Shown one piece after another: positions 1 through 9,967 of a DNA stretch of 64,000 bases. The stretch is from Promethearchaeia archaeon (GTDB lineage Archaea; Asgardarchaeota; Lokiarchaeia; Sigyniarchaeales; SOKP01): contig JAWOCD010000075.1 in the NCBI GenBank assembly GCA_046483985.1, forward strand, positions 45,429 to 109,428, written 5' to 3'. Both the position numbers and the translations under genes were made by a program. The notes below the pieces were generated by a model. That model saw only the letters and a list, made by a program, of their open reading frames with translations, ran no database searches and had not been told where the DNA came from. The stretch's first letter is position 1. Every line of letters begins with the position of its first letter.

Positions 1-22
1 AAAGCTGCAAACCCTCCCTTTT

Positions 23-2050
23 ATGGATGAAAGATTAGATATTGAAGAGAGAGTAAACGATTTTTTAGAGAGGCTAACATTGGAAGAGAAAATATCATTA
101 CTCTCTGGAAAATGGATTTTTTTTTCCGATAGAATTAAAAGGCTCCGTATGCCTTATTTTAAAACAACTGATGGTCCACACGGCGTTGGAAGCGGTGTCT
201 TCTACCTAAAAAAAATGACGTATTTCCCCGTTGCAATCTGCCGAGCTGCTACTTGGAATCCGGATCTCTCCCAACAATTCGGGGTGGCATTAGCACAAGA
301 GACTCGGGCTACTGGAAGACATCTAATATTAGCTCCCGGTATTAATATCATTCGAACCCCGCTTTGTGGTCGGAATTTTGAATATCAGACGGAGGATCCT
401 TTTTTAAATAAAAAGTTAGCGGTTGAGGTGGTTAAAGGCATTCAAAGTCAAAAGATCGGCGCTTGTGTAAAACATTTTGCAGCAAATAACCAAGAATACA
501 AGCGATTTGAAATAAGTTGCGAAGTAAGTGAACGGGCACTAGAAGAGATTTATTTCCCCGCTTTCGAAGCCACCGTACGAGAGGTCGATGTGTGGTCCTT
601 TATGGCATGTTATAACCGATTAAATGGGACTTTTGGATGCGAACATGTTGAACTTTTAAGGGAGAAATTGATGAAGCAATGGGGATTTAGCGGATTTGTT
701 GTGTCTGATTGGTTTGCTACACGGGATACTAACACTGTTGAATGTTTAAAAGCTGGACTTAGTTTAGAAATGCCAAAAGCAATCTGCTACAAGGAAAAAA
801 AGGTGAAGAATGCCCTATCAGAAGGTAAGGTTTCGGAGGATACATTTGAAGATAATTTGCGGAGACTCCTTAGAGTGATGTTCCGTGTGGGATTATTTGA
901 CAGTCCATCCTCTGTTCCCGAAGGAAGTCGCAATACTGAAGAGCACCAAAAAGTTGCACGAAAGATCGCAGAAGAAGGGATAATTCTATTAAAGAACCAG
1001 GACGACCTTCTTCCTTTGGATATTAATGCTGTGAATTTAATTGCCATTTTGGGTCCTAATGCGGATAAGAAAATGGCATTTGGGGGAGGAAGTTCTATGG
1101 TCAGAGCAAAATATGAAGTGACCCCGGAAGAAGGACTTAAGAGTAAGTGCGAAGGAATGGTAAATACTACTACAAAAGTGAATGATGTCGATGCTGCGAT
1201 CATTTTTGCTGGCCTAAATCATAAAAAACATAATGATCGGGAAAATAAGGATAGACTTAGATTAGACCTTCCAAAAGAGCAAGTAAAGCTCATCAAAAGA
1301 ACAGTTAAGAAAGTTCCGAAAACTATTGTGGTGCTCATTAATGGAGGTCCCATCTCTATGGACGATTGGCTTGCCGATGTGCCCGCAGTTATCGAAGCAT
1401 GGTATGCTGGGATGGAAGCAGGAAATGTGATTGCAGATGTGATCTTTGGAGATGTAAATCCTTCTGGTAAATTATCGGTAACTTTTCCGAAAAAATTGGC
1501 TGACAGTCCGGCCCACATTCATCCTTGGACTTATCCTGGTATAAGGAATGTGTACCAGAACGGAGATATTGACCTAGAAGCAGATGATTTCCGAGTATAT
1601 TATAATGAGGGTATATTTGTTGGGTATCGTTATTTTGATACTTTCAATGTGGAGCCGATTTTCCCTTTTGGGTATGGTCTTTCTTATACTACCTTTAACT
1701 TCTCTAATCTTTCCCTAAATAAAGAAAAACTGATGGAAGGAGAGGACTTTAATGTGAAAATAGAATTAGAAAATACGGGAAAACGAACAGGTGCTGAAGT
1801 TGTCCAAGTTTATATAAAAGATAAAGAATCCAGCGTAAAGCGCCCTGAAAAAGAATTATGTGGATTCAAAAAAGTCTTTCTTACACCGGGAGAGAAACAA
1901 TCTGTGGAGATTTCTATCGATTCTGAAGCATTAGCATTTTATGATGAGGGGGAACATCAATGGAAAGTAGAAAAAGGGAAATTTCTTATTTTAGTGGGAA
2001 ATTCCTCCCGACATATTAAATTATCACAAGAACTCGAATATATTGGATAA
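23..2050 (+). CDS. GH3 beta-glucosidase (BglX-like, Fn3-like C-terminus)
   Basis: GH3 motifs TDGPHG, RNFEY, KHFAAN, VSDWF (nucleophile Asp), AWYAG, YNEGIFVGYRYFD, FPFGYGLSYT. Confidence 0.95.
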   Translation: MDERLDIEERVNDFLERLTLEEKISLLSGKWIFFSDRIKRLRMPYFKTTDGPHGVGSGVFYLKKMTYFPVAICRAATWNPDLSQQFGVALAQETRATGRHLILAPGINIIRTPLCGRNFEYQTEDPFLNKKLAVEVVKGIQSQKIGACVKHFAANNQEYKRFEISCEVSERALEEIYFPAFEATVREVDVWSFMACYNRLNGTFGCEHVELLREKLMKQWGFSGFVVSDWFATRDTNTVECLKAGLSLEMPKAICYKEKKVKNALSEGKVSEDTFEDNLRRLLRVMFRVGLFDSPSSVPEGSRNTEEHQKVARKIAEEGIILLKNQDDLLPLDINAVNLIAILGPNADKKMAFGGGSSMVRAKYEVTPEEGLKSKCEGMVNTTTKVNDVDAAIIFAGLNHKKHNDRENKDRLRLDLPKEQVKLIKRTVKKVPKTIVVLINGGPISMDDWLADVPAVIEAWYAGMEAGNVIADVIFGDVNPSGKLSVTFPKKLADSPAHIHPWTYPGIRNVYQNGDIDLEADDFRVYYNEGIFVGYRYFDTFNVEPIFPFGYGLSYTTFNFSNLSLNKEKLMEGEDFNVKIELENTGKRTGAEVVQVYIKDKESSVKRPEKELCGFKKVFLTPGEKQSVEISIDSEALAFYDEGEHQWKVEKGKFLILVGNSSRHIKLSQELEYIG

Positions 2051-2517: not shown

Positions 2518-4797
2518 ATGGTTAAGGTAAAAAATCCACAAGAAATCGCCGAAATGGTTACTGCTGGGTCATATAAGAAAAAACGTCTGTTTTCGATCGT
2601 TGCGCATATTGATTGCTGAATGAATGTCTCATTTAGCCAATAACATGGCAAAACGACGGCAACGGACTATTTAATGCGAAGAGCAGGGCTTATGCGTCCC
2701 GAAGATGCGGGAGAGCTCCAAATGACAGACTCAGATGAAGAAGAACAAGCAAGAGGGATTACGATCTTTACTTCCGTGGTGTTACTTGCGTTTAATGATC
2801 CACGGGAAGAAGAAGGGGTAGAACCTTATATTTTCCAAATAAACGATACACCGGGTCACATCTCATTTACTGGGGAAGTTTCCAGAGCACTTAGAAGCAG
2901 TGATGGAGCGTTGATCTTAGTTGACGCTCTTGAAGGAGTGATGACCCAAACAGAGACGAATATTAATCTTGCTGTTGGAGAGGAATTATGTAAACCTGTT
3001 TTATTTATTAATAAAGTTGATAGGTTAATCTCTGAAATCAAACTTTCACCTCAAGAAACATATGATAAAATTGATGAAATAACAAAACAAGTTAATGAAT
3101 TGATTAGAAAAGTCAGACCTGAATGGTCAGATTGGGGAGTCGAATTTGCAGAAAATTCCGTTGCCATCGGTTCTGCAAAAGATGGATGGGGCTTCACTTA
3201 TGAAATCCTAAAAGAGAACGATTATACACCTGTGAAAGTTTTTGAAAAATATGAGGAAGGAGATATCCAATGGTTAAGAGAAAATCTCCCGTTGGATGAA
3301 CCGATGTTGAGAATGGTAGTTGATCATTTACCAGATCCAGTTACAGCCTCGAAATACAGGATACCTGAAATTTGGCAAGGGGATTTAGATTCTGAACTAG
3401 GGCAAGCATTACAGAAAAGTGATCCAAACGGGCCATTATATGGGATTATTTCCAAAATTTTCTTAGATCCTGCACAAAATTACCGAGCAACCTTAATAGG
3501 AAGGATATTTTCGGGTACAATGGACGAATCGGACACTTTATATCTGCTGAACAGTCGAAAGAAAAGTAGAATAAAACGGTTAGGCGTAATGGAAATAACA
3601 GATATTTTAAATATCAAAGAAATACCAGCAGGGAATATTTTTGCAATGTATGGTCCGATGTGTCCATCCGGGGAAACTTTTGTGGATAACGTTGGGCTTG
3701 CTAAGGACAAAGATAATATTGATGAGATTCCTTCCTTTGAAAATATTAATTATGCGTGCAAAGCAGTAGTTTCTCGAAGCATTAAACCCAAAAATCCGCA
3801 TGATATCGCAAAGTTAGGACAAGTGGTAAAGAAATGGTTAATGGCGGATCCAACCGCAGAGTTTACGATGGACAAGGATTCTAAGGAGTTTATCCTTTCT
3901 GGAATTGATCCTCTGCAGATTGATATCCTTACCAAACGAATTAACAACCAAGTGGAGATCAATATCGGAGAGCCTATTATTGTATACAGAGAACGAATTA
4001 CAAACAAAAGTGCCACGTTTCATACTAAATCTTCAAACGGTCATAACAGAATTCAACTGTATATTGAACCCTTAGATGAAAAGACTCTTGACCTTCTGGA
4101 GTCGGGAAAAATTACCGACTTAATGAACGAAGATGAAAGAGCCGAATTATTGAGAGACGTTGGATGGGACAAAAAAGAAGCAAAGAGAGTGGTAGATGTC
4201 TACAAGGGTAATCTCTTAGTAAACGCCACGAAGGGGTTACAAAGATTTGACCGAGTGAAAAGCTACTTATCTGGCGCTTTCCGTGATTGGTGTGAAAATT
4301 GTATTTTAGCGAAAGAACCTGCTTTAGGACTGCGTTTAGTATTTACGGATTTAACCATTCACGAGGACCCGGCACACACCGGGTATAATCAAATAGCAAG
4401 CATGAGTTATGCTGCTTTTTCCCTTGCAATGATGGATGCAGATCCACATCTTTATGAACCTATCCAGAAAATTGATATTAAAACTCCCTCTGGCACAGAT
4501 CCTGGTGTATTAGCCGTCATAAATAAGCATCGTGGAAGAGTTAATAATGTTGTACCCGATGGAGAATATGTCCGAATCAGCGGACAATTACCCGCCTCGG
4601 AAACCGTTGGTATTGCCGATGAAATTCGAGGATCTACTCAAGGACGTGCCTTTTTTGGATATGAATTTCTCGGATTTGAACGCGTTCCAGCCTCAATAGA
4701 GCCAGACTTGATCCTAGAAATTCGCAAGCGAAAAGGTCTTAAAGTCGAGCTTCCTGATGTTTCCTCATGGCACCGATTTCTCTATAGAAAAACATAA
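2518..4797 (+). CDS. fusA: Translation elongation factor 2 family protein (aEF-2 or paralog), split gene: exon1 2518-2613, exon2 2644-4797, 749 aa after removing the insert
   Basis: ATG at 2518 is in frame with the 2674 ORF; joined exons give G1 AHIDHGKTT; RGITI, DTPGH, NKVDR, YRE, NGHNRI, HEDPAHTG and TQGRA motifs follow. Confidence 0.93.
2614..2643 (+). other. 30-nt bulge-helix-bulge (archaeal tRNA-type) intron candidate in the EF-2 mRNA
   Basis: Insert TGCTGAATGAATGTCTCATTTAGCCAATAA has in-frame TGA and TAA; 4-bp helix ATTG(2608-11)/CAAT(2638-41), 3-nt bulges ATT(2612-14) and AAC(2642-44), 9-bp inner stem; cuts after the 2nd bulge nt restore GAT|CAT (D|H). Confidence 0.88.
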
Positions 4798-4904: not shown

Positions 4905-5615
4905 TCACAACCCTAAGACTTGTTTTAATTCCCTTGTATTCTTCAAAACTAAATCTGGATTATATTCTCTTATTTTTTCTTCAGAAGCTAATCCTGAGCT
5001 CATACATATAATTTTAACATCAGCAGATTTCCCGGCTTGAATATCTGTAACCATATCGCCAATAAAAATTGCTTTAGAAGGGACAATTTCCCATTTTTTG
5101 AGGATTAGCTGAATTCCCTCGGGACTTGGTTTAACCTCACTTACTTCATTAAAACCGATAATTAAGTTAAAATATTTTTTTAAATCATATTTTTCAAGAA
5201 CTTCTTCTGCATGGGTATTTTTGTTATTCGTTAAAACAGCCAACCTTATCCCATCATCAGCTAATGATGAAATAATATTATCAATCTCTGGATATAACGT
5301 GGCATCTTCTTTATATTCATTGAATTGGTTAAATAAATAAATCCCAACGCGCAATTTTTTGAAATAACTTAACCCTTCTAAGAATTCTACTTTTAATAGA
5401 TCATAGGATTTGAGAATTATCTTAGGGACGGGATAATGTTGTAATTCTTCGATTAAATGAGCCACTTCTTGAAGCACATCTTCAATATCCACATCAATCT
5501 GATACTTTTCTACGGTATCCTCAACAGCTTGTTGAATTGCATTAGTAATATTAAATATTACTCCATCCAAATCAAAAATAATTCCCGAGTAATTAGTAAG
5601 TTCTAGTTTATCCAT
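4905..5615 (-). CDS. HAD-superfamily hydrolase (phosphoglycolate phosphatase-like)
   Basis: IFDLDG motif I, LTN, KPSPEG, IGDMVTDIQAG. Confidence 0.9.
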   Translation of the reverse strand: MDKLELTNYSGIIFDLDGVIFNITNAIQQAVEDTVEKYQIDVDIEDVLQEVAHLIEELQHYPVPKIILKSYDLLKVEFLEGLSYFKKLRVGIYLFNQFNEYKEDATLYPEIDNIISSLADDGIRLAVLTNNKNTHAEEVLEKYDLKKYFNLIIGFNEVSEVKPSPEGIQLILKKWEIVPSKAIFIGDMVTDIQAGKSADVKIICMSSGLASEEKIREYNPDLVLKNTRELKQVLGL

Positions 5616-6635: not shown

Positions 6636-7271
6636 TTGGTTCTTATGGATGACGAGAAATATTTACTTATTATCGGCAACTCAAATGTAGGAAAATCCTC
6701 AATCACAAGGCTTTTACTCCCCCATCCTAAGCGATTTAAAGGAAAAACAGGAAAAAGTCCTGGCAGCACTTTGCAGATAAAACCCATTTTTCAGCATGGC
6801 ATGTCATATAAAATTGTTGATCTGCCGGGATTTGGATATATGCGTCATTCAAGCAAGAGGAGAGAAGATCATCTTAAGAAGCAGATTGTGGTCCATATTG
6901 AAAAAAAACATCATCGCTATTTTTTTGCCCTTGTGGTGATCAATATTCTGCGTATCGAAGATGAATTGGAAAAATACCATTATCTAAATCAAAAAACAAT
7001 TCCTTTATCGTTTGAATTAATTAACTTTTTGCGCGAGTTTCAAATTCCCTTACTGGTCATAATGAATAAAATAGATAAACTTAATAATTTCCATGTGAGA
7101 CGGAGAATTCGCCTTTTTGTGAATACAGCCACCCAATATGGTTTAAATCTCCTTCATCTAGATGAATATCGTCACGAAGACGAAATAATTCCATATCTAG
7201 AATTCTCTGCCCTCAATAAAACGAATTTGGGAAAACTTAAGAAAGAACTCCACTATCGATTAACCCATTGA
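6636..7271 (+). CDS. engB: EngB/YihA-family GTP-binding protein
   Basis: GNSNVGKSS, PGST, DLPGFGY, NKID, SAL motifs; start could be ATG 6645. Confidence 0.85.
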   Translation: MVLMDDEKYLLIIGNSNVGKSSITRLLLPHPKRFKGKTGKSPGSTLQIKPIFQHGMSYKIVDLPGFGYMRHSSKRREDHLKKQIVVHIEKKHHRYFFALVVINILRIEDELEKYHYLNQKTIPLSFELINFLREFQIPLLVIMNKIDKLNNFHVRRRIRLFVNTATQYGLNLLHLDEYRHEDEIIPYLEFSALNKTNLGKLKKELHYRLTH

Positions 7272-7425: not shown

Positions 7426-8667
7426 GTGACTAAGTATATTATCTTAATTTGTGACGGTGGGGCAGATTGGCCCATTGAAGAATTGGGAAATAAAACTATT
7501 TTTGAAGCCGCAAAGTTACCACATTTGGATTGGATTGCCACACACGGAAAAATGGGGATGTTAAAGACGATCCCGGAAGGAATGGCCCCGGGGAGTGAAT
7601 GTGCAAACATGACAATCATGGGATATCGCCCAGAAAAGGATTTAACGGGGCGAGGGCCACTTGAAGCGTTAAGTGCTAAAGTACCATTAAACGATACCGA
7701 TTTAGCTTTTCGGTGTAATTTTATTACCATAAAAAAAGGGATAATTGCTGATTATTCTTCTGGCCATATTAGTTCAGAAGAGTCAAAACCCATAATCGCT
7801 TCACTCCAATCAAAATTACATGATGAAGGGGTAGATTTTTTTCATGGTGTTCAATATAGACATATCTTGCGACTGGACGGGGAAAGATTTTCTGCCAATA
7901 TGGAACTGACCCCTCCTCACGATCAGTTAGGAGAACCGTATAGACAATTCTTGCCCCGCCCCCTAGATCCAGATAATGGAAAAGCAGTGAAAACGGCGGC
8001 TTATCTTCGAAAACTTATAGAAAAAAGCCATGCTATCCTTGTAGATCATGAAATCAACAAAAAAAGACAAGCGGAAAATAAAGAAATGGCAACCCATATT
8101 TGGCCATGGAGCGGGGGAAAAAAACCCACCATTGAACCATTTGAACAAAAATTTGGGCTGAAAGGATCAGTAATTTCTGCAGTAGACTTAATTTTTGGCT
8201 TAGGTATTGCCGCTGGAATGGATCCAATTCATGTGAAAGGTGCAACAGGATTGCCAAATACTAATTATTCGGGGAAGGTTTCTGCGGCGCTCAATGAATT
8301 AAGACAGAAAGATTTGGTCTACTTACATATAGAAGCCACCGATGAAATGGGTCATACTGGTATTCCACAAAAGAAGATAGCAGCGATTAAAGCCTTTGAT
8401 CAATATATCGTTAAACCATTTATAGATGCTGAAGAAGAATTTAATAACCAGCTGGTTATTGCCGTGTTACCCGACCATCCGACCCCGTGCAAAATTAGAA
8501 CCCACTCACGGGAACCCGTTCCCTTTGCAATCTATAATCCGGAAGATAACTCTAAAAACTTAAAACAACGTAACTATACAGAAGAAGCTGGAAAAAAAGG
8601 GGAATATGGACTTATTCCTGATGGAGAACTGTTTATGCGGCTATTTTTAGGAAAAGAGGAAAAATAG
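7426..8667 (+). CDS. apgM: Cofactor-independent phosphoglycerate mutase (archaeal type)
   Basis: DGGAD, PGS, GRGPLEA, DEMGH, DHPTP, HSREPVP motifs. Confidence 0.92.
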   Translation: MTKYIILICDGGADWPIEELGNKTIFEAAKLPHLDWIATHGKMGMLKTIPEGMAPGSECANMTIMGYRPEKDLTGRGPLEALSAKVPLNDTDLAFRCNFITIKKGIIADYSSGHISSEESKPIIASLQSKLHDEGVDFFHGVQYRHILRLDGERFSANMELTPPHDQLGEPYRQFLPRPLDPDNGKAVKTAAYLRKLIEKSHAILVDHEINKKRQAENKEMATHIWPWSGGKKPTIEPFEQKFGLKGSVISAVDLIFGLGIAAGMDPIHVKGATGLPNTNYSGKVSAALNELRQKDLVYLHIEATDEMGHTGIPQKKIAAIKAFDQYIVKPFIDAEEEFNNQLVIAVLPDHPTPCKIRTHSREPVPFAIYNPEDNSKNLKQRNYTEEAGKKGEYGLIPDGELFMRLFLGKEEK

Positions 8668-8677
8668 ACAAAAAAGG

Positions 8678-9967
8678 TTAGATTTCTGTGATTGTAGGAT
8701 CCTTCTGTTTATCCCAATTAACCGCAAAAAGAAAGTCTCTACTTACTTCATTTTCATAAATTAAGGGAAAATTACTGACTTCTTCTACTTTTTTGGCGTA
8801 ATTTTTCAGATCATCGTAATCAGGAAAATAATAACTCGCCGGCTTTCCGGATTTTAATCTCTTATTAATACGTAGGGCTTTTGCTTGGAGCGTAAACCCT
8901 TTTATTTCAAGGAAATTGGGATTTGCTTTTTTGATTATTTTAACATATTCTTCAATATTTTTTTCTTTTATATTAAGATTTTTTACTGCTGTTAGCCTGA
9001 TCAATGTTCGACAGGGGAGTGTTTCGACTAAGTCCATTGTTTTCATAATTTTATTCCATCCCTCTTTTATCTTTGGACGGCACACTTTTTTATATTGTTT
9101 TTCATTGGATGCTGGCAGTGATATGTATAATTGAGATGGATAACTCTCCATTTGTTCGATTTTTTCCGGAAGAGTTCCATTAGTAACTATAAATGTTGTC
9201 ATATCTCTATTTCTGAACTCCTTAACCAAGCTGGAAATATGGGGATACAAATAAGGCTCCCCATCCAAGGAAATCGCTGCATGGTTTGGTCTCATTGCCT
9301 CTGAATGTATTTCCATTATCTCATCGGGGCTTGTTAACTCTCTGTTCATTAACAATTCTATTTCATGTCTATCATCAATACTGTCCACAATATCTTCATC
9401 TAAAACATAATACTCATAATTCTTATCAACTGGTTTAATAAATCTCTGGTTTTTGAGAAGATTAAGAGCTCTATTTATTTTAGTTTTGCTTGTATGTATA
9501 TACTTCGATAATGAATCTATATTTTGTTTGCTTTTATTAATTATCATATAATGAATTATATCTATCATGATTTCATAATTATCAAGAAATCTTTTCAAGG
9601 GTAAATGGTTTTGGATTAAATTTTTTTGATGCCTTATCATTTCTTTTACGAGGTACTTTGGATCATCTGGTTCCACGGAGAATTCATTGCCTATAGTTTT
9701 ATTCTCAACATCCCTCCAACAAAAGACACACTGATGGTTGCAAAACGCAAGGCTGGGTGTATTTTGTAAGCATCGATGGCTTTCTACCCCGAATACTCCT
9801 TTATAACAATTACGGTTGTCTCTTCCGGTTAATAATTTTTGTTCAAGCCAATGACATGGCTTTATTGCGGAATGGTGTTCTTTTCCGACTATTCGATAAT
9901 TTGACTTTGTATAATCTTTAATGAACTCATTCGTAATTTTATGATTCTTGATATATTTTCTATTCAT
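8678..9967 (-). CDS. taw1: 4-demethylwyosine synthase (radical SAM Tyw1/Taw1) with internal insertion
   Basis: HSAIKPCHW, CYK, SHRCLQ, CNHQCVFCWR (Cx3Cx2C), AISLDGEP, TNGTLP, LYISL. Confidence 0.92.
   Translation of the reverse strand: MNRKYIKNHKITNEFIKDYTKSNYRIVGKEHHSAIKPCHWLEQKLLTGRDNRNCYKGVFGVESHRCLQNTPSLAFCNHQCVFCWRDVENKTIGNEFSVEPDDPKYLVKEMIRHQKNLIQNHLPLKRFLDNYEIMIDIIHYMIINKSKQNIDSLSKYIHTSKTKINRALNLLKNQRFIKPVDKNYEYYVLDEDIVDSIDDRHEIELLMNRELTSPDEIMEIHSEAMRPNHAAISLDGEPYLYPHISSLVKEFRNRDMTTFIVTNGTLPEKIEQMESYPSQLYISLPASNEKQYKKVCRPKIKEGWNKIMKTMDLVETLPCRTLIRLTAVKNLNIKEKNIEEYVKIIKKANPNFLEIKGFTLQAKALRINKRLKSGKPASYYFPDYDDLKNYAKKVEEVSNFPLIYENEVSRDFLFAVNWDKQKDPTITEI

What the first reader, a model, noticed from the sequence alone, without database searches (positions are those of the whole stretch)
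2597..2656. Canonical bulge-helix-bulge intron splitting the GTPase P-loop of an EF-2 mRNA
Seen: from ATG 2518 the frame reads MVKVK...SIVAHID, then a 30-nt insert (2614-2643) containing TGA and TAA, then HGKTTATDYL, continuous with the 2674 ORF. The region folds as an outer exon-exon stem (CAT 2605-07/ATG 2645-47, extendable via GC/GC and TCGTT/AACGA), a 3-nt bulge AAC (2642-44), a 4-bp helix ATTG/CAAT, a 3-nt bulge ATT (2612-14) and a 9-bp intron stem GCTGAATGA/TCATTTAGC with loop ATGTC. Established: the archaeal splicing endonuclease EndA cuts after the second nucleotide of each BHB bulge and RtcB ligates. Here that removes exactly 2614-2643 and restores AHIDHGKTT. Archaeal BHB introns are typical of tRNA/rRNA; the well-known mRNA case is crenarchaeal cbf5. 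Inference: this Asgard-type archaeon splices the mRNA of a translation GTPase with its tRNA-splicing machinery. Unspliced RNA would give only a 33-aa peptide, so splicing could act as an expression switch linking elongation-factor supply to EndA/RtcB activity, conceptually like non-spliceosomal HAC1/XBP1 splicing. Gene callers would annotate a truncated EF-2 with no G1 motif and miss it.
Basis: partly seen in the sequence, partly recalled or inferred. Interest (0 to 1): 0.96.

Follow-up and report, generated by a model that had tools for sequence, protein, structure and literature searches.

The report
tRNA-type mini-intron in Asgard EF-2 gene
The only working elongation factor 2 gene of this Asgard (Loki-type) archaeon is split in its GTP-binding loop by a 30-base intron shaped like those cut from tRNAs, so an essential message very probably needs the tRNA-splicing enzymes, a thing in print for only one archaeal gene.

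Summary
Window 2614-2643 is a 30-nt insert with two in-frame stops in an otherwise intact canonical aEF-2 gene (ATG 2518, stop 4797). It is the only deletion that restores AHID|HGKTT, and it is exactly what the bulge-helix-bulge (BHB) cut rule predicts.

Comparison makes the case. In the same gene, about 25 of 146 related Promethearchaeia genomes, plus metagenome contigs, carry inserts. Five positions have the same BHB geometry: 4-bp helix, two 3-nt bulges, 9-bp hairpin. A sixth insert lacks it. Nearly all inserts are 30 nt. Removing each BHB insert restores the ortholog sequence. In 22 relatives' introns, 94.8% of helix cells pair and 12 of 14 pairs show compensatory changes.

The genome encodes EndA and two RtcB. 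At least three other genes in it are split the same way.

The RNA contigs I could lay do not reach the junction, so splicing is inferred, not seen. The proposed "expression switch" has no support: intron presence is patchy among close relatives.

Earlier notes of this scan describe the same class on other Asgard DNA, some citing RNA evidence, which I did not check. I found no paper on it; the nearest in print is the crenarchaeal cbf5 intron.

The parts
2518..2613 (+). Exon 1 of aEF-2: 32 codons, MVKVK...SIVAHID, ending with the first half of the G1/P-loop motif
   Evidence: Translation. It is 69-81% identical to the N-termini of uninterrupted orthologs.
2614..2643 (+). 30-nt BHB mini-intron. 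Layout: 1 bulge nt + 9-nt stem arm + 5-nt loop + 9-nt stem arm + 4-nt H' + 2 bulge nt. It holds in-frame TGA and TAA.
   Evidence: It is the only deletion that restores AHIDHGKTT.
2644..4797 (+). Exon 2 of aEF-2: HGKTT... to the stop, 717 codons. It holds all five EF-2 domains, and the domain IV loop HEDPAHTG keeps the diphthamide-site His.
   Evidence: Assigned as canonical aEF-2 rather than aEF-2p by the criteria of PMC6143161.
2605..2607 (+). Outer exon-exon helix h, 5' strand (CAT). It pairs with 2645-2647.
   Evidence: present in the MFE fold.
2645..2647 (+). Outer helix h, 3' strand (ATG).
2597..2603 (+). Extension of the outer helix, 5' strand. TCGTT 2597-2601 pairs with AACGA 2652-2656; GC 2602-03 pairs with GC 2648-49; G2604 is bulged.
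   Evidence: MFE fold.
2648..2656 (+). Extension of the outer helix, 3' strand.
2608..2611 (+). Central 4-bp helix H, exon strand (ATTG).
   Evidence: The H helix is paired in all 22 relatives' introns (100% of cells) with compensatory changes at all four pairs.
2638..2641 (+). Central helix H', intron strand (CAAT).
2612..2614 (+). 5' bulge ATT. Predicted EndA cut between 2613 and 2614.
   Evidence: The cut rule (between the 2nd and 3rd bulge residue) is stated in PMC2738675.
2642..2644 (+). 3' bulge AAC. Predicted EndA cut between 2643 and 2644.
2615..2637 (+). Inner hairpin h': 9-bp stem (2615-23 / 2629-37, one G-U) with the 5-nt loop ATGTC (2624-28).
   Evidence: The same 9+5+9 architecture is seen in relatives.

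Best explanation
Window 2614-2643 is an archaeal bulge-helix-bulge (BHB) intron inside the coding sequence of the organism's only canonical elongation factor 2 gene.

Proposed mechanism:
1. The pre-mRNA folds so that the last six exon-1 bases and the intron's 3' end form a 4-bp helix flanked by two 3-nt bulges on opposite strands.
2. The splicing endonuclease EndA cuts between the 2nd and 3rd nucleotide of each bulge (2613|2614 and 2643|2644).
3. RtcB joins the exons, giving ...GCG CAT ATT GAT|CAT GGC AAA..., that is AHID|HGKTT. The 30-nt intron is probably released as a circle.

Without splicing only a 33-residue peptide results, or a protein without a P-loop if translation starts at ATG 2674.

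The intron belongs to a stereotyped population of about 30-nt hairpin introns that come and go in protein-coding genes of this Promethearchaeia family.

Shown here: the structure, the exact restoration of the frame, covariation, the presence of the enzyme genes, and selection on both exons. Inferred: the cleavage and ligation themselves, and that splicing is constitutive.
For: 1. Geometry and the unique frame-restoring deletion coincide.
2. Orthologs in 146 of 154 genomes of the order are mostly uninterrupted and read AHIDHGKTT straight through. About 25 genomes, all of one family, plus metagenome contigs carry inserts in this gene. BHB-fitting inserts sit at five sites: AH^ID, AHID^HG, HG^K (phase 1), MTD^SD and TDSD^DE. 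Almost all are 30 nt. Each has an H helix of 3-4 of 4 pairs, 3-nt bulges and a roughly 9-bp hairpin, and removing each restores the ortholog sequence exactly.
3. Length variants of 31, 33 and 43 nt keep the BHB core and change only the interior. This is expected if only the BHB matters.
4. Covariation in 22 relatives' introns: 94.8% of cells paired against 78% in shuffles and 37-48% in slid controls. 12 of 14 pairs have compensatory changes, and 0 of 500 shuffles reach this. My own count, which includes this intron, gives 96%.
5. One genome (G063) needs two introns removed to open the frame, and both fit the layout.
6. The genome has EndA (PF02778 + PF01974, 200 aa) and two RtcB genes.
7. The gene is otherwise intact over 749 codons. 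dN is about 0.16 with dS saturated against the nearest orthologs, for exon 1 as well as exon 2.
8. It is the only copy that keeps the domain IV HxDxxH loop. The other copy (C59) lacks that loop and fits aEF-2p.
9. Three more genes of the same genome are split by 30-31-nt BHB introns, and Pfam domains continue exactly across the exon ends.
Against: - No RNA read or contig across the exon-exon junction, and no circular intron, was seen.
- The outer helix h is short in most relatives (0-3 bp).
- Some introns at this same site have an A.G mismatch at the outermost H pair. Whether the single EndA detected tolerates these is unknown.
- The BHB register is not the thermodynamic MFE.
- One related 30-nt insert (L109) has no BHB at all, so not every such insert need be spliceable.
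- EndA's quaternary type and specificity were not determined.
Confidence: 0.88

Rival explanations
1. The insert is a small palindromic DNA insertion that inactivated the gene. On this view the gene is a young pseudogene, or a truncated P-loop-less product from ATG 2674, and nothing is spliced.
For: - No RNA evidence for the junction.
- Gene callers would find an open frame from 2674.
- A related contig (L109) has a 30-nt hairpin insert flanked by a 6-nt direct repeat and no BHB, which looks like a plain insertion.
Against: - It is the only canonical aEF-2 in a 97%-complete genome.
- There is no other lesion in 749 codons, and exon 1 is conserved as coding sequence.
- Inserts of the same geometry persist in about 25 species-level genomes with compensatory changes in the helices. 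That means selection on the RNA fold, which a dead insertion would not have.
- A GTPase without the G1 motif would not be functional.
Confidence: 0.05
2. The ribosome hops over the 30 nt (translational bypassing, as in phage T4 gene 60), using the hairpin and the stop codon just after the take-off site.
For: The take-off codon is followed within two codons by a stop. A stable hairpin lies in the gap.
Against: - There is no matching landing codon. Take-off would be GAT, but the bases before 2644 are ATAA.
- Relatives have inserts in phase 1 and of 31 nt and 43 nt, which are not multiples of three. They show no take-off/landing pairs.
- What is conserved is the staggered 3-4-3 bulge-helix-bulge with the exon, which bypassing does not need.
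Confidence: 0.02
3. The insert is an assembly or sequencing artefact of this MAG.
For: The source is a metagenome-assembled genome. Contigs of two relatives (G023, G079) end exactly at the P-loop.
Against: - A Logan contig of a DNA run covers 2517-2912 with the insert, one mismatch and no gap. It may come from the source sample, so it is not independent.
- Equivalent inserts occur in dozens of independent assemblies from different studies.
Confidence: 0.01
4. The intron is spliced as proposed, but splicing is regulated and serves as an on/off switch that couples EF-2 supply to EndA/RtcB activity.
For: - Unspliced mRNA cannot give an active factor.
- All inserts inspected carry an in-frame stop or shift the frame.
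Against: - Most orthologs lack any intron.
- Sister genomes 2-3% apart in protein sequence differ in presence or absence.
- Positions differ between lineages. The same kind of intron sits in unrelated metabolic genes.
- Nothing points to a conserved regulatory role. The stops may simply reflect shared descent and AT-rich sequence.
Confidence: 0.1

Closest known systems
BHB intron in the cbf5 pre-mRNA of Crenarchaeota (Aeropyrum, Sulfolobales, Desulfurococcales; Watanabe 2002; Yokobori 2009, PMC2738675)
   Same: - A short intron inside an archaeal protein-coding sequence.
- Recognised through a BHB fold and cut between the 2nd and 3rd bulge residues by EndA.
- Sits in a catalytic-site codon of an essential RNA/translation-related protein.
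- Gained and lost among relatives.
   Different: - Different gene (aEF-2) and phylum (Asgard/Promethearchaeota).
- The cbf5 introns have relaxed BHB motifs and need the heteromeric EndA. Here the motif is strictly canonical 3-4-3, and only one EndA gene was detected.
- cbf5 has one position. This gene has five BHB positions across relatives. The same genome has at least three further split genes.
- cbf5 splicing was shown by cDNA. This one is inferred.
[quoted passage not shown]
   Same: - Same hBHBh' geometry and the same presumed enzymes.
- Repeated, apparently independent gains in Asgard lineages, with the route of arrival unknown.
   Different: - The host here is an mRNA, so splicing must be exact to the nucleotide to keep the frame.
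- The papers read here treat tRNA introns only and describe none in protein genes.
- The intron-rich classes they name are Jordiarchaeia and Atabeyarchaeia, not this family.
Unconventional HAC1/XBP1 mRNA splicing (IRE1 plus tRNA ligase/RtcB)
   Same: Non-spliceosomal removal of a short intron from an mRNA by a protein endonuclease that cuts in stem-loops. In metazoa the exons are joined by RtcB. Removal changes what is translated.
   Different: - The endonuclease is IRE1, not EndA, and its recognition motif differs.
- That system is a proven stress-regulated switch. No regulation is shown here, and the distribution argues against one.
Inteins and homing-endonuclease introns in P-loops and other conserved motifs
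   Same: Selfish-looking insertions sit exactly in the most conserved nucleotide-binding or active-site motifs of essential genes. They must be removed precisely for function.
   Different: - Removal here is at the RNA level by host enzymes.
- A 30-nt element encodes nothing, so any mobility must rely on host functions or recombination. Mobility is not shown.

Membership tests
Archaeal BHB (EndA/RtcB-spliced) intron | Two 3-nt bulges on opposite strands separated by a 4-bp helix | tested here: met
   Bulges 2612-14 and 2642-44; helix 2608-11 / 2638-41, all Watson-Crick. The H helix is 100% paired in 22 relatives' introns.
Archaeal BHB (EndA/RtcB-spliced) intron | Flanking helices h (exon-exon) and h' (intron) that make the canonical hBHBh' form | tested here: met
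   h' is 9 bp. h is 3 bp plus a 7-bp interrupted extension in this gene. In relatives h is only 0-3 bp, so many of them are closer to the relaxed HBh' form.
Archaeal BHB (EndA/RtcB-spliced) intron | Cuts between the 2nd and 3rd bulge nucleotides give a functional mature RNA | tested here: met
   The predicted cuts remove 2614-2643, the only deletion that restores AHIDHGKTT. The same holds at all other BHB sites. The rule is stated in PMC2738675.
Archaeal BHB (EndA/RtcB-spliced) intron | Helices maintained by compensatory change in homologs | tested here: met
   12 of 14 pairs show changes on both sides, 94.8% of cells are paired and 0 of 500 shuffles are as high. My own count of 23 distinct sequences gives 96%.
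Archaeal BHB (EndA/RtcB-spliced) intron | Host encodes the splicing endonuclease and the 3'-P RNA ligase | tested here: met
   EndA at C32:38299-38793. Two RtcB genes.
Archaeal BHB (EndA/RtcB-spliced) intron | Spliced RNA, excised or circular intron, or in-vitro cleavage observed | tested here: inconclusive
   The metatranscriptome contigs laid on the gene cover only 2676-2935 and 2742-2892. Nothing bridges the junction. Further run searches were capped.
cbf5 pre-mRNA intron lineage of Crenarchaeota | Located in the catalytic Asp codon of cbf5 in Desulfurococcales/Sulfolobales | tested here: not met
   The host gene is aEF-2 of a Promethearchaeia archaeon. It works like the cbf5 intron but is not a member of that lineage.
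Canonical archaeal EF-2 (aEF-2) as opposed to the paralog aEF-2p | Domain IV loop HxDxxH(R)G with the diphthamide-site His kept; five EF-2 domains; G motifs | tested here: met
   - HEDPAHTG is present in exon 2.
- The Pfam domains GTP_EFTU, D2, EFG_III, EFG_IV and EFG_C are found.
- The C59 copy has no such loop.
- The criteria come from PMC6143161.
- The TIGR00490 score of 584-588 bits is below the 738 cut-off. That paper describes accelerated evolution in these lineages.

The most novel reading that the evidence does not exclude
The roughly 30-nt BHB hairpins are an actively spreading intron population in protein-coding genes of Promethearchaeia, the archaeal lineage nearest to eukaryotes.

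- They insert again and again at conserved nucleotide-binding or active-site motifs. The very phosphodiester between the Asp and His codons of the EF-2 P-loop is occupied in three separate clades by introns of unrelated sequence.
- They move by small steps: sites D and E are 6 nt apart, and their intron sequences are clearly homologous.

This would imply a site-directed gain mechanism that uses host enzymes, such as reverse splicing by EndA/RtcB followed by reverse transcription, or gene conversion across conserved flanks. It would be a living model of intron gain in coding genes before the spliceosome.
Probability: 0.35. Interest if true: 0.92.

Novelty: new variant of a known kind. Interest (0 to 1): 0.82.

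Why it matters
In print, splicing of an archaeal coding sequence by the tRNA endonuclease rests essentially on one gene, cbf5, in Crenarchaeota.

Here the same chemistry is predicted for the essential translocase of an Asgard archaeon, in the middle of its GTP-binding loop. It appears as part of a dynamic population of mini-introns:
- five BHB sites in this one gene across relatives;
- several other genes split in the same genome;
- presence or absence differing between near-identical species.

Practical consequences:
- Gene callers will report truncated or "pseudo" versions of essential genes in these MAGs. That distorts completeness estimates, metabolic reconstructions and marker-gene phylogenies; EF-2 is a standard marker.
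- It gives a concrete, testable system for how introns enter and leave protein-coding genes in the closest prokaryotic relatives of eukaryotes.

Tried and rejected
- **RNA evidence.** One run search and one read-laying were allowed. Two salt-lake metatranscriptome runs hold contigs 100% identical to exon 2 (2676-2935 and 2742-2892). None reaches 2613/2644, so nothing can be said about splicing. A DNA-run contig (2517-2912) holds the insert but may come from the source sample.
- **Covariance model.** Model R1, built from 22 relatives' introns, found nothing significant in the own genome, not even this intron (best E = 0.64). Introns at different sites share structure but not sequence, so a CM census fails.
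- **Permissive BHB + ORF-joining scans.**
  - One search gave about 1000 hits.
  - One search gave 642 hits against 419 for random positions.
  - Only strict filters isolated real cases, so I give no genome-wide count.
- **First-reader candidates in HDAC and dnaG.** My quick test did not reproduce either with a 4/4 H helix. They are left unverified.
- **tRNA introns.** ARAGORN found only 22 tRNAs, 7 with introns. That is too few to ask whether tRNA introns of this genome resemble the mRNA ones.
- **MFE folding.** It does not return the BHB register. Thermodynamics alone neither proves nor disproves the motif.
- **Other mechanisms considered and rejected:**
  - translational bypassing: no landing codon; phase-1, 31-nt and 43-nt variants exist;
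  - intein: the insert holds stop codons;
  - group I/II intron: 30 nt is far too small;
  - programmed DNA excision: no repeats or recombinase;
  - alternative genetic code: TGA and TAA both occur in the insert, and the frame is otherwise standard.
- **Literature.** Seven full-text searches found no report of BHB introns in Asgard protein-coding genes. The library does not hold most subscription journals.
Full report
**1. The observation**

The sequence is as described. From ATG 2518 the frame reads 32 codons ending ...SIVAHID, then TGC TGA. From 2644 the same frame, shifted by 30 nt, reads HGKTTATDYL... and stays open for 717 codons to the stop at 4795-4797.

The 30 nt between them (2614-2643) lie in a textbook hBHBh' motif:
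- outer helix CAT/ATG (2605-07 / 2645-47), extended by GC/GC and TCGTT/AACGA;
- central helix ATTG/CAAT (2608-11 / 2638-41);
- 3-nt bulges ATT (2612-14) and AAC (2642-44) on opposite strands;
- a 9-bp inner stem with a 5-nt loop (2615-2637).

The strand arrangement matches pre-tRNA: on each strand the bulge follows the central helix in the 5'-to-3' direction. The cut rule, between the second and third bulge residue, is stated for archaeal pre-mRNA in PMC2738675. It removes exactly 2614-2643.

I enumerated all deletions of 1-119 nt in this region. This is the only one that gives a full-length frame with AHIDHGKTT. A permissive search for the same 30-nt layout hits about 6e-5 of genome positions, so the coincidence is not chance.

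Thermodynamic folding alone is unimpressive: z = -2.17, and the BHB register scores -16.6 against an MFE of -20.3 kcal/mol. This is usual for staggered bulges.

**2. What the gene is**

Exon 2 matches aEF-2 over its whole length: TIGR00490 at 584 bits, profile positions 30-720, with all EF-2 domains. The nearest solved structures are archaeal EF-2.

The genome (G000: 4.06 Mb, 97% complete) has two EF-2 family genes.
- The uninterrupted one on C59 has no HxDxxHRG loop in domain IV.
- The interrupted one keeps HEDPAHTG, with the target His.

By the criteria of Narrowe et al. 2018 (PMC6143161) the interrupted gene is therefore the canonical translocase and the C59 copy is the paralog aEF-2p. So the essential copy carries the intron.

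Relatives are deposited as Promethearchaeota or Promethearchaeia MAGs, that is, Loki-type Asgard archaea.

**3. Comparative test**

An uninterrupted ortholog (P0003) finds the gene in 146 of 154 genomes of the order. Most read AHIDHGKTT straight through. About 25 genomes, all of the window's own family, have stops inside a match that is about 30 nt (once about 60 nt) too long. I fetched them and added metagenome contigs.

All but one of the inserts resolve to the same architecture: 1 + 9 + 5 + 9 + 4 + 2 = 30 nt. In each, the exon supplies the 5' strand of the 4-bp helix and the first two bulge nucleotides. They fall at five sites:

| Site | Position | Carriers |
|---|---|---|
| A | AH^IDHGK | four genomes and six metagenome contigs |
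| B | AHID^HGK | this genome; G146 (31 nt); three metagenome contigs |
| C | HG^K, phase 1 | 30, 33 and 43 nt versions |
| D | MTD^SD | two genomes |
| E | TDSD^DE | about 17 genomes |

In every case the BHB cuts restore the ortholog sequence exactly. G063 needs two introns removed. The length variants change only the interior hairpin.

**4. Covariation**

On 22 relatives' introns, 94.8% of cells pair. Shuffles give 78%, with 0 of 500 as high. Slid partners give 37-48%. Twelve of 14 pairs show compensatory changes, and the central helix is 100% paired with changes on both sides at all four positions. My own count, which includes this intron, gives 96%.

Together with section 3, this amounts to selection on the RNA fold and on exact excision. 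A dead insertion would have neither.

**5. Machinery and selection**

- The genome has one EndA gene: 200 aa, N-terminal plus catalytic domain, with the Tyr/His/Lys-bearing segments visible.
- It has two RtcB genes.
- A single 200-aa subunit suggests the homotetrameric, strict-BHB type, which would fit the strictly canonical 3-4-3 geometry. A divergent second subunit cannot be excluded.
- Against the nearest orthologs dN is about 0.16 and dS is saturated, for exon 1 as well as exon 2. There is no other lesion in 749 codons.

**6. Dynamics**

On a quick ML tree of the EF-2 proteins the intron states are patchy.
- Site E needs at least 9 changes.
- Sister sequences 2-3% apart differ in presence or absence.
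- Site B occurs in three separate clades, with introns that share no recognisable sequence.
- Within sites A and E the introns are clearly homologous.
- Sites D and E, 6 nt apart on the repeat ACAGAT/TCAGAT, carry homologous introns whose H' strand has changed to match (CTGT against CTGA).
- The closest relative found, 86% identical over the first 94 residues, has no intron at site B.

The sampling is biased towards intron carriers, and the tree is a quick one. I read this only as frequent gain and/or loss. Direction and mechanism stay open.

**7. The same thing elsewhere in this genome**

My strict scan found a second 30-nt intron of identical layout that splits DKHS|TGG of a thymidine/AMP phosphorylase-family gene. 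Following first-reader notes of this scan, I also confirmed two more:
- a 30-nt intron splitting the GxGxxG loop of a UDP-glucose/GDP-mannose dehydrogenase-family gene;
- a 31-nt intron in an iorB/POR-family gene.

In all three, Pfam domains stop at the end of exon 1 and resume at the matching profile position in exon 2.

Earlier notes of this scan report the same class in other Asgard genomes, some citing RNA reads across the junction. I did not test those and do not count them as support.

**8. RNA**

Splicing therefore remains an inference, though a strong one.

**9. Rivals**

- Pseudogene or plain insertion: contradicted by selection on the fold and the exons, and by this being the only canonical aEF-2.
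- Ribosomal bypassing: no landing codon, and phase-1, 31-nt and 43-nt variants exist.
- Artefact: excluded by dozens of independent assemblies.
- Regulated switch: untested, and disfavoured by the patchy distribution.

**10. Comparison with what is known, and novelty**

It works like the crenarchaeal cbf5 pre-mRNA intron and like tRNA introns. It is not a member of the cbf5 lineage: the gene and the phylum differ, the BHB is canonical rather than relaxed, and there are many sites.

Papers on Asgard introns that I could read treat tRNA genes only. Seven full-text searches found nothing on Asgard coding-sequence BHB introns.

I rate it a new variant of a known kind. My confidence that it is an EndA/RtcB-spliced intron is 0.88.

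Noticed in passing
L144:1129-1158 (- strand; G000:C32:149428-149457): A second 30-nt BHB intron of the same 1+9+5+9+4+2 layout splits the DKHS|TGGVPG phosphate-binding motif of a thymidine/AMP phosphorylase-family gene. Exon 1 carries Glycos_trans_3N. Exon 2 starts at position 11 of Glycos_transf_3.
   Followed up: yes
L145:167-196 (+; G000:C45:48366-48395): A 30-nt BHB intron (H helix GGCT/GGCT with two G-U pairs, 10-bp hairpin) splits the Rossmann loop VIGMGY|VGIPMA of a UDP-glucose/GDP-mannose dehydrogenase-family gene. Exon 2 starts at profile position 11 of UDPG_MGDP_dh_N.
   Followed up: yes
L146:621-651 (- strand; G000:C4:28720-28750): A 31-nt BHB intron (H helix AGCG/CGCT), which shifts the frame, splits ...ILGSE|MHGLAQREG of an iorB/POR-family gene. 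Exon 2 starts at position 29 of the POR profile.
   Followed up: yes
L109: about 713-742 (metagenome contig Ga0114925_10000099): A 30-nt insert with two stops lies after codon 136 of an EF-2 ortholog (MTQTE^TNIR). It has a 9-bp hairpin and is flanked by the 6-nt direct repeat ACGGAA, but I could not find any canonical BHB register. It may be a fresh insertion, a relaxed motif, or a clue to how these elements arrive.
   Followed up: partly
L055:2150-2408 (- strand; G146): One genome carries two introns in EF-2. One is a 31-nt intron at exactly this window's site (AHID^HGK), with an A.G mismatch in the outermost H pair and an interrupted stem. The other is a canonical 30-nt site-E intron. Three metagenome contigs (L108, L134, L135) also have site-B introns with the same A.G mismatch.
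   Followed up: partly
L001:1495-3729 (- strand; G000:C59): This is the second EF-2 family gene of the genome (744 aa, uninterrupted). It has intact G motifs but no HxDxxHRG loop in domain IV, so it fits the aEF-2p paralog of Narrowe et al. 2018.
   Followed up: partly
L016 (G023:C283 end) and G079:C62 start: Contigs of two relatives end exactly at the P-loop codons of EF-2 (matches start at residue 35/36). This may be an assembly break at a polymorphic intron site.
   Followed up: no
whole genome G000: ARAGORN finds only 22 tRNA genes (7 with introns) in a 97%-complete genome. This suggests many tRNA genes are hidden by non-canonical introns, as reported for other Asgard lineages.
   Followed up: no
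all BHB sites (own genome and relatives): The first nucleotide of the 5' bulge is A at all eight sites examined (AT, AA or AC before the cut). The first nucleotide of the 3' bulge is A at seven of the eight. This may be an EndA preference or an insertion-site preference.
   Followed up: no
window 2-2050, 4905-5615, 6636-7271, 7426-8667, 8678-9967: The neighbours of EF-2 are ordinary and not translation genes: a GH3 glycosidase, a HAD hydrolase, a small MMR_HSR1 GTPase, a cofactor-independent phosphoglycerate mutase and a radical SAM protein. EF-2 is not in a str-type operon here.
   Followed up: partly
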